In this document: one piece after another, positions 42,428 through 44,684 of the stretch
Layout: every line of letters begins with the position of its first letter
How positions within the stretch are numbered: the stretch's first letter is position 1
IMG/VR virus record: IMGVR_UViG_2529293142_000033
Direction: 5' to 3' (one strand)
DNA length: 54,512 nt
DNA from: a virus
Taxonomy: Duplodnaviria; Heunggongvirae; Uroviricota; Caudoviricetes
Made by a program: the position numbers and the translations under genes
The notes under the pieces: generated by a model
Database searches by the model: none
Told to the model about the DNA's origin: nothing
What the model saw: the letters and a program-made list of their open reading frames with translations, nothing else

Positions 42428-43597
42428 ATGAGTCGTTTTTCACATGATGACTACACGTGCGCGATGGTGAATCTTCTGCCATCGGGGATGGCGTGGAACC
42501 GGCTGCCTGACAGCGTGCAGTACAGGCTGATGCGCGGGCTGGCGCAGGCGTACCGGCAGAGTGATGCTGATGCGTGCGCCCTGATAACGGGGGCCTTCCC
42601 GGAAACGGCGGATGCGCTTACTGATGAGTGGTATGCCTCGCTGGGGCTGAATGATGAATGCGGAACGCAGGCATCCACCACAGACCCGGCGCAGGCCAGA
42701 AAATTCATTCTGGCGAAACTGCTGTCGACGGGCGGGCAGAGCGTGGCGTATTTCACGGAGCTGGCGGCGACGATGGGCTACAGCATCCGTATCCGTGAGT
42801 ACCGCACACCGCTGTGCGGGTTTTCGTGGTGCGGGCACCTGCTGAGTGATGACAACCGGTTCAACTGGACCGTGGTGGTGGCCCCGCAGGGGGATGACGT
42901 GACCACCTCACGGGCGTACCTGGAGTGCCTGTTCCGTCGTTATGCCCCGGCACAGACGCTGGTGACGTTTGAGTGGCAGTCGTCATACAGCGCCGTCCTG
43001 AGTATGGCGTGGGACAACAGCACGCGCCTTCTTTCAGGTGCACTGATGGCGGATGAGGGTGTGGTGGTGTCGGGCGTGACTGTGAATGTCGTCATCAAAT
43101 CCATGTCGGGACAGCGGTATGTGGCGACGGTGTCCACAGACAGTGACGGGGGCTGGTCGTTTGAAGCGGATGATGAAACCTTCACAAATGGCAGTTACAC
43201 GGTTTATGCGCAGGCGGACGTGGATATGCCGGATGATGTCACGGTGCCTGTACGAAGCGCGTTACTGAATGTACGGGTACAGACACAGGGTGAGGGGGAC
43301 AACGGTGATGATGAGCCGGCATCTGACGACACGACGCAGGAGCCGCTGGTCATTAACCGGGTGATGCTTCAGTCGGGGCGCACGACGCAGGAGCCGCTGA
43401 TTATCAGCAGGGCACACCTTCAGTCGGGATACCCGACGCAGGAGCCGCTTGTCATTAACAGTGCGATGCTTCAGTCGGGATATCTGACGCAGGAGCCGCT
43501 TGTCATTAACAGTGCGATGCTTCAGTCGGGATATCTGACGCAGGAGCCAGTGGTCATTAACAGGCTCTGGCTGAATTTTGCCGTCACTAATGAGTGA
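42428..43597 (+). CDS. baseplate/tail protein, Mu gp48-like, with C-terminal 17-aa tandem repeats
   Basis: ATG 42428 after gagga RBS; C-terminus carries 4.5 copies of TQEPLVINSAMLQSGYL. Confidence 0.65.
   Translation: MSRFSHDDYTCAMVNLLPSGMAWNRLPDSVQYRLMRGLAQAYRQSDADACALITGAFPETADALTDEWYASLGLNDECGTQASTTDPAQARKFILAKLLSTGGQSVAYFTELAATMGYSIRIREYRTPLCGFSWCGHLLSDDNRFNWTVVVAPQGDDVTTSRAYLECLFRRYAPAQTLVTFEWQSSYSAVLSMAWDNSTRLLSGALMADEGVVVSGVTVNVVIKSMSGQRYVATVSTDSDGGWSFEADDETFTNGSYTVYAQADVDMPDDVTVPVRSALLNVRVQTQGEGDNGDDEPASDDTTQEPLVINRVMLQSGRTTQEPLIISRAHLQSGYPTQEPLVINSAMLQSGYLTQEPLVINSAMLQSGYLTQEPVVINRLWLNFAVTNE
43331..43585 (+). repeat. 51-bp tandem repeat (4.5 copies) within gp48-like gene
   Basis: unit acgcaggagccgct.gtcattaac.g.g.gatgcttcagtcggg repeats with period 51 nt. 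Confidence 0.85.
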
Positions 43598-44684
43598 CAA
43601 CAACGAAAGGAGACTGTTTTTGAACTCAATCATACTTGAAGGATTCCGGCAGATAGCGGCGGATGAGGCGCTGTGCGACAGCTACACTTCAGACAACATT
43701 CTTTCCGCACTGAACAAAAACGGCGTCACACTTATCACCGAAATGTCAGGTTCGGTGAGTTCTGTGTGCCGCACCACGCAGACCATCAATACGGTGGCGC
43801 GTACCGGGCTGGCATTCACGACATCATCAAACCTCATGCTCAGGTGTCTGCTGCCTGATTTGAGTGAGACGGCGGTGCAGTTCGGGTTTCGCCTGTCACT
43901 GGGGGAGGGAGAGAAGTATTCCTCTTCTCCGTCTCACATCGGGATTGGCAGCGCATCGTTCACCACCCCGTATCCGGATGAAGCCGCCAGCTACTATTTT
44001 GAGATTTTTGCTGCCTGGAACGGCAGCAGCACGGTCAGTGCCAGTCTGTACTGTAACCGCGCGCTGGTCGGGAGCGCGACTCTCGGTGTGTCATCGTCAG
44101 GAACAGGGGCGGTGAGTGTCCGGATTGGCGGTGGCAACAATGTATTTGCATCAGGTGTGAGCGGCATTTTCATGCCGGGTGATATGTACTGCATGACGGT
44201 GCCGTATGGTGATAACTATGATGCCTCACCATCACTGCTGGGGAGTATTGAGGTCGGCTACAGTCCGGTAACGGCATTCACCGGGGGGAGTGCCACAAAC
44301 TCGCTGAGTAAAGATATTGTCACCGGGCTGAACGCATCTGATGACGACAGCGGGTATCTGATACTGAACAGTTCAGGTGAAGCCGCCGGGGGCACGTTTG
44401 AGGATATTGATAACACCGGGGGAACCCTGGTTGCGGTGCAGGCGGCGGTCACCCTGAGGGAATCCGCTTCGCCCAACAATCTTCTGGCATGGAGTGTGGG
44501 GTGCGGAAGCAGCAGGGGCGATGTGATATCAGAAACGGAGGCAGAAAGCGACACGAACAGCTGGACGACGGTGACGCAGGGGTTCATGAGTATGCCGGGA
44601 GATGGCAGCGAGTTTGAAACAGGCGCACTGACCTTCACGGCGAATCTGTATAACCGGAAGAAAAGTGAACAGGAGACGGCCTGA
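43590..44684 (+). CDS. hypothetical tail-associated protein (possible receptor-binding or fibre-associated component)
   Basis: about 365-aa Ser/Gly/Thr-rich ORF between baseplate genes and tail fibre; alternative TTG start at 43620 with aaggag RBS. Confidence 0.5.
   Translation: MSDNNERRLFLNSIILEGFRQIAADEALCDSYTSDNILSALNKNGVTLITEMSGSVSSVCRTTQTINTVARTGLAFTTSSNLMLRCLLPDLSETAVQFGFRLSLGEGEKYSSSPSHIGIGSASFTTPYPDEAASYYFEIFAAWNGSSTVSASLYCNRALVGSATLGVSSSGTGAVSVRIGGGNNVFASGVSGIFMPGDMYCMTVPYGDNYDASPSLLGSIEVGYSPVTAFTGGSATNSLSKDIVTGLNASDDDSGYLILNSSGEAAGGTFEDIDNTGGTLVAVQAAVTLRESASPNNLLAWSVGCGSSRGDVISETEAESDTNSWTTVTQGFMSMPGDGSEFETGALTFTANLYNRKKSEQETA

What the first reader, a model, noticed from the sequence alone, without database searches (positions are those of the whole stretch)
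43590..44684. Uncharacterised 365-aa Ser/Gly/Thr-rich protein between baseplate and tail fibre genes
No recognisable family. The position (after the gp48-like gene, before fibre and Tfa) is where host-range determinants or fibre-associated adhesins are found. It could be a second receptor-binding protein.
Basis: inference. Interest (0 to 1): 0.4.

Follow-up and report, generated by a model that had tools for sequence, protein, structure and literature searches.

The report
Lectin-fold tail protein with repeat dock
This prophage gene encodes a sugar-binding-like (lectin-fold) tail protein that always travels together with a short tandem-repeat "docking" segment on the preceding tail protein, which suggests a portable extra host-recognition module that has not yet been tested experimentally.

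Summary
The ORF is real, but it most likely starts at TTG 43620 (354 aa), not ATG 43590. It has no Pfam, NCBIfam or PADLOC hit. It matches PHROG 8291 (unknown function) over its full length. The family is narrow: E. coli and E. albertii prophages, plus a sister subfamily in Salmonella, Citrobacter and Klebsiella. No deposited phage genome carries it.

A confident AlphaFold model shows two beta-sandwich domains, one with a concanavalin-A-like lectin fold. Profile comparison (95.5%) and full-length fold matches link it to Chi gp32-34 and AchV4 gp25-27. Two of the AchV4 proteins were detected in virions by mass spectrometry.

Main finding: in every locus, the protein encoded upstream ends in 3-7 tandem 17-residue repeats. 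This holds whether that protein is Mu gp48, a lambda-type Stf N-terminus, another fibre anchor, a 925-aa tip protein or a stand-alone 66-88-aa ORF. Phages without the gene have a short gp48 with no repeats.

Best reading (inferred, untested): a distal, non-covalently docked, glycan-binding accessory receptor-binding protein, exchanged with its repeat dock between myovirus and siphovirus tails. This copy of the prophage looks defective.

The parts
43620..44684 (+). Gene X: a 354-aa two-domain beta-sandwich (lectin-fold) protein, member of PHROG 8291. It has a conserved TTG start, and its stop overlaps the ATG of the fibre gene.
   Evidence: ORF and sequence. PHROG match. Family alignment. Conserved TTG start with Shine-Dalgarno. 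AlphaFold model, pLDDT 87.9 and pTM 0.87. Fold searches.
43606..43612 (+). Shine-Dalgarno sequence AAAGGAG, 7 nt upstream of TTG 43620.
   Evidence: Read directly from the sequence. Equivalent sites lie upstream of the TTG start in relatives.
43590..43619 (+). They are probably not translated as part of X.
   Evidence: Homologues lack this extension, and in several loci no start codon exists upstream of the TTG.
42407..43006 (+). gp48-like baseplate wedge domain, which acts as the carrier and virion anchor.
   Evidence: Pfam PF10076, E 2.5e-20, residues 19-189. phrog_203 baseplate wedge subunit, residues 7-195.
43007..43320 (+). Extra Ig-like domain plus an acidic linker. Both are absent from the Mu, D108 and BZS1 gp48 proteins.
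   Evidence: Weak Big_13, CarboxypepD_reg and SdrD_B hits at residues 210-273. gp48 is 180 aa in D108 and 224 aa in BZS1.
43321..43597 (+). Repeat module (proposed dock for X): five 17-residue repeats, TQEPLVINxxMLQSGxx, the last being a cap (PVVINRLWLNFAVTNE*). At the DNA level this is a 51-bp tandem repeat.
   Evidence: Translation. Tandem Repeats Finder, 43332-43564, period 51, 4.6 copies. Five core motifs at 17-residue spacing.
44684..45475 (+). Conventional short tail fibre (263 aa), translationally coupled to X.
   Evidence: Many PHROG tail-fibre hits. The overlap is TGATG.
45482..46027 (+). Tail fibre assembly protein (Tfa).
   Evidence: Pfam Caudo_TAP, E 1.2e-23. phrog_136.

Best explanation
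X is a virion-associated accessory tail protein with a lectin-type (concanavalin-A-like) beta-sandwich fold. It is made from the late tail operon from a conserved weak TTG start.

Proposed mechanism, all steps inferred. X docks non-covalently, probably through its conserved N-terminal strand (MNIIxLEGFRQI), onto the 17-residue tandem-repeat module at the C-terminal (distal) end of the preceding protein. In this window that protein is an extended gp48 baseplate-wedge protein. This would place X at the periphery of the baseplate, next to the conventional fibre. There it would act as a second host-recognition element, most likely binding a surface glycan through its variable loops. The repeat dock and X move together as a cassette between contractile and non-contractile tails.

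Shown here: the gene, its fold, its remote homology to tail-module proteins of Chi-like phages, and its strict genomic pairing with the repeat module.

Not shown: physical docking, stoichiometry, presence in the virion, and ligand.

For: 2. Relatives in isolated phages. The model matches, over its full length (TM 0.6-0.65, probability 1.0), 316-371-aa proteins of Chi-like siphophages. hhalign of the X family against AchV4 gp25-27 plus Chi gp32-34 gives probability 95.5%, E 1.5e-8, over 198 columns. The N-terminal motif is shared. AchV4 gp25 and gp26 were detected in virions by LC-MS/MS (PMC7996906).

3. Pairing with the repeat module. Every locus that includes upstream DNA has the module on a virion-anchored carrier. 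The carriers include several divergent gp48 types, lambda-type Stf N-termini, another fibre N-terminal anchor, a 925-aa tip protein and stand-alone 66-88-aa ORFs. The module is usually preceded by a flexible linker and ends 1-25 nt before X.

4. Converse test. Scans of viral contigs that started from the repeat module, independently of X, found no genuine type-A module without X where the DNA continues.

5. Negative controls. gp48 of BZS1 (224 aa) and D108 (180 aa) has no repeats and no X; the fibre gene follows directly.

6. Co-divergence. The repeat type follows the X subfamily: PLxINxxxLQxG with the E. coli type, PV[RK]xxYG with the Salmonella type. Mantel r = 0.85, p <= 0.0002.

7. Cassette behaviour. 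Between the window and a true Mu-like prophage (L002), X is 62% identical and the repeat module 49%, but gp47 and gp48 only 29%.

8. Operon context. X is translationally coupled to the fibre gene, there is no excess of promoter- or terminator-like sites, and GC3 matches the neighbouring genes.

9. Sequence variation. dN/dS is 0.35, and variation is concentrated in loop-sized blocks over a conserved core and N-terminus.
Against: - There is no direct evidence that X is in any virion of this phage group, binds the repeats, or binds a glycan.
- The co-fold test could not be run. The single-sequence model of the repeat region was uninformative (pLDDT 46.6).
- None of about 50,000 deposited phage genomes carries the family.
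- In lambdoid prophages X is the last gene before host DNA, a classic moron position. It also occurs in a small degraded element.
- Adjacency alone could produce the co-occurrence and the Mantel signal through linkage.
- X proteins that are 95% identical pair with repeat modules only 45% identical, so residue-level co-evolution is not evident.
- X is more conserved than the baseplate genes between distant phages, which is unusual for a strain-specific receptor-binding protein.
- The solved Chi virion structure includes gp30 but none of gp31-36.
Confidence: 0.55

Rival explanations
1. X is a non-structural cargo gene (a moron, for example a lysogenic-conversion, exclusion or defence factor). 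It hitch-hikes at the distal end of tail operons and is not part of the virion.
For: In lambdoid prophages X is the last phage gene before host DNA. It is also present in a small integrase/RadC/CbtA element. It is absent from all deposited phage genomes. It persists intact in this apparently defective prophage.
Against: In Mu-like tails X lies inside the operon between gp48 and the fibre gene, with overlapping stop and start codons and no excess of promoter-like sites. GC3 matches its neighbours. It has no signal peptide, TM segment or lipobox and no PADLOC hit. It is homologous to tail-module proteins, two of which were detected in AchV4 virions. A moron would not be expected to co-occur strictly with a repeat module fused to structural proteins.
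Confidence: 0.12
2. X is an assembly factor or chaperone for the repeat-bearing protein, analogous to Tfa. It folds or caps the repeat module and need not take part in host recognition.
For: In lambdoid loci X occupies the Tfa position directly after a short Stf, and no Tfa gene follows. It always follows the protein whose C-terminus carries the repeats.
Against: X has no Caudo_TAP domain or any similarity to Tfa. It is a 354-aa two-domain lectin-like protein, about twice the size of Tfa proteins. Its relatives AchV4 gp25 and gp26 are found in virions. In L017 and L018, X is separated from the repeat-bearing gene by the fibre and Tfa genes.
Confidence: 0.1
3. X is an enzyme: a beta-jelly-roll polysaccharide lyase or depolymerase that degrades capsule, colanic acid or another uronic-acid polymer at the tail tip.
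Against: Identity to these enzymes is about 10%, and lectins and CBMs score equally well. The PL7 signature motifs, recalled from memory, are absent. Only the GF, YY.E and D..Y positions are shared with the Chi-like relatives, which suggests core rather than catalytic residues.
Confidence: 0.1
4. The repeats do not dock X. They form a small beta-solenoid or stalk, or simply act as a recombination-prone linker, and their co-occurrence with X reflects linkage within a mobile cassette. X attaches elsewhere, for example to the fibre.
For: The repeat has conserved Pro, Asn and Gly positions and a distinct terminal cap, as in solenoid rungs. Copy number varies through 51-bp DNA repeats. There is little residue-level co-variation with X.
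Against: The protein motif is conserved while the DNA and the carriers diverge. The module also exists as a stand-alone small ORF immediately before X. Type A and type B repeats track the two X subfamilies. This rival changes only the docking detail, not the overall role proposed for X.
Confidence: 0.13

Closest known systems
Chi gp32-34 / AchV4 gp25-27 tail-module proteins of Casjensviridae (PHROG 2448, function unknown)
   Same: Two-domain fold over the full length (TM 0.6-0.65). Profile-profile homology (95.5%). Shared N-terminal hh.h[DE]G[FY] motif and WYY[YF]E / D[DM][FM]Y motifs. Located at the distal end of the tail module after a short fibre gene. AchV4 gp25 and gp26 were detected in virions by mass spectrometry.
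   Different: Less than 20% identity, and no direct HMM hit (one search lists only phrog_8291). They occur as 3-4 tandem paralogues. They are not preceded by the 17-residue repeat module; instead a repeat-rich protein (Chi gp36, AchV4 gp28) follows them. They are themselves uncharacterised and absent from the solved Chi structure.
Accessory carbohydrate-binding modules of siphophage baseplates (for example lactococcal BppA/BppU-BppL systems; mycobacteriophage Douge gp23; TM4 gp23 receptor-binding domain)
   Different: The similarity is at fold level only (9-12% identity). The attachment is different, and those systems have no tandem-repeat dock. The comparison with the lactococcal proteins rests on general knowledge and was not tested here.
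Tail fibre assembly proteins (lambda Tfa / Mu gpU, Pfam Caudo_TAP)
   Same: Encoded directly after the protein whose C-terminus they would bind. In lambdoid loci X occupies the Tfa slot.
   Different: No Caudo_TAP match. The fold and size are unrelated. In this window a genuine Tfa is present separately (45482-46027).
Modular receptor-binding protein docking systems (T4 gp34-37 fibre joints; K1-5/CBA120/G7C adaptor-tailspike branching)
   Same: The logic is the same: a conserved N-terminal part on the distal protein docks onto an adaptor carried by a virion-anchored protein, which allows modular exchange (inference; recalled from the literature).
   Different: In those systems the docks are folded domains on trimeric proteins. 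Here the candidate dock is a run of 3-7 short 17-residue repeats that can sit on a gp48 baseplate-wedge protein (one copy per wedge in Mu-type baseplates, from the literature), on a lambda-type Stf, or on a stand-alone ORF.
Concanavalin-A-like lectins / PL7-type lyases
   Same: The beta-jelly-roll fold of one domain.
   Different: About 10% identity. No lectin metal- or sugar-site residues or lyase motifs could be identified.

Membership tests
PHROG 8291 (unknown function) | Full-length match to the family HMM | tested here: met
   E 1.6e-139; residues 11-357 of the 364-aa version match profile positions 1-347 of 349. The Salmonella-type relative P0048 also matches (E 8.6e-21).
Casjensviridae Chi gp32-34 / AchV4 gp25-27 family (PHROG 2448) | Direct HMM match to the family | tested here: not met
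   At E <= 0.1, X hits only phrog_8291. An HMM built from A1 does not detect the AchV4 proteins (E > 0.1).
Casjensviridae Chi gp32-34 / AchV4 gp25-27 family (PHROG 2448) | Remote homology (profile-profile) together with the same two-domain fold | tested here: met
   hhalign probability 95.5%, E 1.5e-8, 198 columns. Foldseek full-length TM 0.6-0.65.
Phage receptor-binding protein / adhesin (functional class) | Present in the virion | not testable with these tools
   The only evidence is indirect: the remote homologues AchV4 gp25 and gp26 were detected by LC-MS/MS (PMC7996906).
Phage receptor-binding protein / adhesin (functional class) | Binds a host surface receptor and determines adsorption or host range | not testable with these tools
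   The lectin-like fold and loop-concentrated variation are compatible with this but are not proof.
Mu-type conserved baseplate components (gp44-gp48) | Homology to a core baseplate family and presence in Mu-like phages generally | tested here: not met
   No Pfam, PHROG or NCBIfam baseplate hit. X is absent from D108 (Mu-type) and BZS1. It is present in siphovirus prophages.
Tail fibre assembly protein (Caudo_TAP, PF02413) | Caudo_TAP domain | tested here: not met
   No hit at E <= 0.1. The neighbouring gene at 45482-46027 does have the domain.
Tailspike / beta-helix depolymerase | Right-handed parallel beta-helix fold | tested here: not met
   The model consists of two beta-sandwich domains, and the best matches are jelly rolls.
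Concanavalin-A-like lectin/glucanase fold | Beta-jelly-roll sandwich topology | tested here: met
PL7 alginate lyase | Catalytic signature motifs R[ST]E[LV]R, Q[IV]H, YFKAGxYxQ (recalled from the literature) | tested here: not met
   A regular-expression search of X found none of them.
Known anti-phage defence proteins (PADLOC) | Match to any PADLOC model | tested here: not met
   No families matched for X, gp48, P0048 or P0101.

The most novel reading that the evidence does not exclude
The 17-residue repeats form a 'string of docking sites': each repeat recruits one lectin-like X subunit. The phage would then display a multivalent adhesin array whose valency changes by expansion or contraction of the 51-bp DNA repeats (3-7 copies observed). 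The whole dock-plus-X cassette would be a plug-in able to equip unrelated tails (Mu-type baseplates, lambda-type side fibres, other tip proteins, even stand-alone adaptors) with a new binding specificity. Chi-like phages may use the same principle, with several X paralogues and the repeat-rich gp36 / AchV4 gp28 protein.
Probability: 0.2. Interest if true: 0.75.

Novelty: new variant of a known kind. Interest (0 to 1): 0.5.

Why it matters
If the model is right, it defines an undescribed and portable way of attaching an extra host-recognition protein to phage tails: a short repeat tag plus a lectin-fold partner. The same pair is found on both contractile and non-contractile tails of enterobacterial prophages.

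It would also give a first functional lead for PHROG 8291 and PHROG 2448. PHROG 2448 includes four unexplained tail-module genes of the model flagellotropic phage Chi.

A short peptide tag that recruits a binding module would be useful for engineering phage or tailocin host range. The claim can be tested directly with standard pull-down, virion proteomics and adsorption assays.

Tried and rejected
- **Solved-structure sequence searches.** The X profile and the Chi/AchV4 relatives and their neighbours found nothing relevant. Only Chi gp30 has a solved structure.
- **tblastn against about 50,000 phage genomes.** X and two divergent relatives gave no match.
- **Single-sequence AlphaFold of the gp48 C-terminal part.** pLDDT was 46.6. 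It hinted only at one beta-strand per repeat and was not used as evidence.
- **Homologue search with the repeat module.** Nothing scored, probably because of composition filtering.
- **AFDB50 fold search.** The library was not available.
- **Degenerate three-repeat DNA pattern.** It also hit unrelated Pro-rich repeats and non-coding frames, which were discarded after translation.
- **Literature on Chi-like phages.** The papers read give no function or location for Chi gp32-36.
- **Rejected readings.** Core baseplate component, Tfa-type chaperone, beta-helix tailspike, known defence protein and PL7 lyase membership; see the membership tests.
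Full report
**1. Observation**

The + strand carries an intact ORF from 43578 to 44684. 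It lies between a gp48-like gene (42407-43597; Pfam Phage_Mu_Gp48, phrog_203) and a 263-aa tail fibre gene (44684-45475), which is followed by a Tfa gene (45482-46027; Caudo_TAP). Its stop codon overlaps the fibre gene's ATG (TGATG).

- All 19 aligned homologues begin at MN(I/S)I.LEGFRQI.
- In every E. coli-type locus that position is a TTG behind a Shine-Dalgarno sequence, and in several loci it is the only available start codon.
- RefSeq annotates the orthologue as 354 aa.

In the window this start is TTG 43620, behind AAAGGAG at 43606-43612. The protein is Ser/Gly/Thr-rich (35%), though hardly more so than the neighbouring fibre.

Pfam, NCBIfam and PADLOC give nothing. PHROG 8291 (unknown function) matches end to end at E 1.6e-139. 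dN/dS against a 97%-identical relative is 0.35, close to gp48 (0.38) and higher than gp47 (0.03).

**2. Distribution**

The E. coli-type subfamily has 22 clusters at 90% identity. All those with a source name are labelled E. coli and called 'hypothetical', and they are 40-99% identical to X. One further locus is in E. albertii.

An exhaustive profile search of 1.84 billion representatives found only 16 proteins. Some of these lead to a sister subfamily of more than 115 clusters in Salmonella enterica, S. bongori, Citrobacter and Klebsiella oxytoca.

About 61 of 5,426 complete E. coli genomes carry a member. None of about 50,000 deposited phage genomes does.

**3. Fold and remote relatives**

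AlphaFold2 with the family alignment gives a confident model (pLDDT 87.9, pTM 0.87). It is almost entirely beta-strand and consists of two sandwich domains.

Against predicted viral structures, the whole protein matches (TM 0.6-0.65) 316-371-aa proteins of Chi-like siphophages (Casjensviridae). In AchV4 these are gp26 and gp27. Together with gp25, they form a run of paralogues directly after a short 'tail fiber' gene. Phage Chi has the same layout: gp31, then gp32-35, then gp36.

The relationship goes beyond fold:
- hhalign between the X family (27 sequences) and AchV4 gp25-27 plus Chi gp32-34 gives 95.5% probability (E 1.5e-8, 198 columns).
- It aligns SYY[YF]E with WYY[YF]E and GDMY with DDFY.
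- The N-termini share hh.h[DE]G[FY][DER][QH].

AchV4 gp25 and gp26 were detected in purified virions by LC-MS/MS, and the authors noted that they resemble no known structural protein (PMC7996906). No solved structure exists for any of these proteins. The deposited Chi structure includes gp30 but not gp31-36. The papers I could read assign them no function.

**4. The key regularity: a repeat module always accompanies X**

The gene neighbourhoods are of several kinds:
- Hybrid prophages with a Mu-like tail, as in this window.
- True Mu-like prophages with com and mom genes (L002).
- Lambdoid siphovirus prophages, where X is the last phage gene (L003, L004, L039).
- A third siphovirus tail type (L036).
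- A small degraded integrative element (L037).

In all of them, the protein encoded before X ends in tandem repeats with a 17-residue period:
- Type A, with the E. coli-type X: core P-[LVM]-x-[IV]-N-x-x-x-[LF]-[QH]-x-[GA].
- Type B, with the Salmonella-type X: core P-V-[RK]-x-[ILV]-Y-G.

There are 3-7 copies, ending in a distinct cap such as PLLINHPGLHFAVVTSE* or PVKGIYGYLLVTEV*.

The carriers are otherwise unrelated:
- Several divergent gp48 types.
- Lambda-type Stf N-termini.
- Another fibre N-terminal anchor (L006).
- A 925-aa tip protein, which has a (PVDPDK)12 linker before the repeats.
- Stand-alone ORFs of 66-88 aa.

In the window the module is gp48 residues ~305-396. It follows an extra Ig-like domain and an acidic linker, and at the DNA level it is a 51-bp tandem repeat (43332-43564). 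In two loci (L017, L018) the gene order is gp48+repeats, fibre, Tfa, X.

Further tests of the association:
- Scans that started from the repeats, independently of X, found no genuine type-A module without X where sequence continues.
- gp48 of the closest isolated relatives (Serratia phage BZS1, 224 aa; D108, 180 aa) has no repeats and is followed directly by the fibre gene, with no X.
- Repeat type and X subfamily co-diverge (Mantel r 0.85, p <= 0.0002; within type A, r 0.58, p 0.015). However, X proteins that are 95% identical can pair with repeat modules only 45% identical. Only the motif core therefore seems constrained, and linkage contributes to the signal.
- Between the window and the Mu-like L002, X (62%) and the repeats (49%) are far more similar than gp47 and gp48 (29%). 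This indicates exchange as a cassette.

**5. Mechanism proposed**

Established here:
- X is a maintained late-operon gene.
- It has a lectin-type fold.
- It is remotely homologous to tail-module proteins, two of which were detected in AchV4 virions.
- It is strictly paired with a C-terminal repeat module carried on virion-anchoring proteins.

Inferred:
- The repeats are the dock through which X is attached non-covalently to the distal end of the carrier. X's conserved N-terminus is the likely docking element.
- In this phage, X would then sit at the baseplate periphery on an extended gp48, beside the conventional fibre.
- X would be a second, probably glycan-binding, host-recognition element. 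Its sequence variation is concentrated in loop-sized blocks.

I could not test docking. Stoichiometry is open: it could be one X per repeat, or the repeats could form a small capped beta-solenoid stalk.

**6. Rivals**

- *Moron or cargo gene.* This is suggested by the terminal position in lambdoid prophages and the absence from isolated phages. Against it are the operon-internal position and translational coupling here, the lack of any export signal, the lack of a defence-model hit, the virion-detected relatives, and the pairing with repeats on structural proteins.
- *Tfa-like assembly factor.* This fits the gene order, but not the fold, the size or the virion-detected homologues.
This is excluded by the distribution of the family.

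**7. Novelty and verdict**

The gene is not 'family-less': it belongs to PHROG 8291. Both that family and its Chi-like relatives (PHROG 2448) are uncharacterised, and I found no description of the repeat-dock association.

I classify it as a new variant of a known kind, namely a modular accessory receptor-binding protein. Confidence in the docked-accessory-RBP model is about 0.55.

**8. State of this copy**

The prophage has a lambda-like head module and a Mu-like tail, and is integrated at dusA. In this window it carries a TGG-to-TAG nonsense mutation in the gp44/P-like baseplate gene (39470-39472). It also has a 5.6-kb block containing IS elements between Tfa and the integrase end, replacing 1.6 kb of the relative. 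It is therefore probably defective, and experiments should use the intact relatives.

Noticed in passing
window 39470-39472 (within 39158-40246): In-frame TAG (W105*; TGG in the relative L001) splits the Mu gp44/P-like baseplate gene into two ORFs (39158-39472 and 39482-40246). This copy of the prophage is probably unable to build tails, unless this is a sequencing error.
   Followed up: yes
window 46051-51680: A 5.6-kb block containing IS elements replaces 1.6 kb (an alpha/beta hydrolase region) of the relative L001, between Tfa and the integrase/dusA end. It includes a 513-aa + 249-aa gene pair at 46908-49210 that looks like IS21 istA/istB, and an IS3-like orfAB at 49268-50199 on the - strand. 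The IS family names were judged by eye and not checked against a profile library.
   Followed up: partly
window 52289-54512; L001 26250-28473: The right end of the prophage is a tyrosine integrase next to dusA, so the element is a dusA-integrated prophage with a lambda-like head module (terminase, gpW, portal, S49 protease, decoration and major capsid proteins) and a Mu-like contractile tail.
   Followed up: partly
L035 19255-20991 (AchV4 gp28); L094 16142-18271 (Chi gp36; phrog_7226): The gene after the X-like paralogues in Chi-like phages encodes a 578-709-aa protein made largely of several series of short tandem peptide repeats. Examples are AQFAQVL / xxVGEALxx at a period of about 17-19, TRVTxTSxxLLxxL at about 22, and [FWY]PDPxxPxS. 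It could be a scaffold for the paralogues, analogous to the repeat dock described here. No solved structure exists.
   Followed up: partly
all E. coli-type loci, e.g. window 43620; L002 8001; L006 6001: The start codon of X is a conserved TTG behind a good Shine-Dalgarno sequence across the whole E. coli-type subfamily. In the Salmonella-type loci examined it is mostly ATG (L039 uses TTG). A conserved weak start may tune the amount of X relative to its carrier.
   Followed up: partly
L036 about 6650-6870; L003 7062-7775: Long Pro-rich linkers precede the repeat module: (PVDPDK)x12 in the 925-aa tip protein of L036, and (EPDPG)n in the Stf of L003. In L003 the repeat tract appears to have caused a frameshift that separates the Stf body from its repeat module (the 61-aa ORF at 7793-7978).
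   Followed up: no
L061 5780-5896; L090 2832-2948 (the latter on a 312-kb metagenomic viral contig): A different 17-residue tandem repeat (APISVNGITTAAYNRSx, 5-6 copies) has a P-x-x-V-N core like the type-A module. No X-like gene was found in the short flanks available. It may be an unrelated repeat or a distant analogue.
   Followed up: partly
L037/L038 (Salmonella) 581-8110: A Salmonella-type X, with a stand-alone 66-aa repeat protein and a collagen-like short fibre (GDK repeats), sits in a small element with an integrase, RadC, DUF2787 and a CbtA toxin, and with no other tail genes. This exact protein is indexed in 200 blocks of the assembly collection. The element could be a degraded prophage or a satellite-like element carrying its own fibre module.
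   Followed up: no
window 1-19000: The left third of the window has a much lower G+C content (0.37-0.49) than the structural module (0.58-0.63). It was not analysed here.
   Followed up: no
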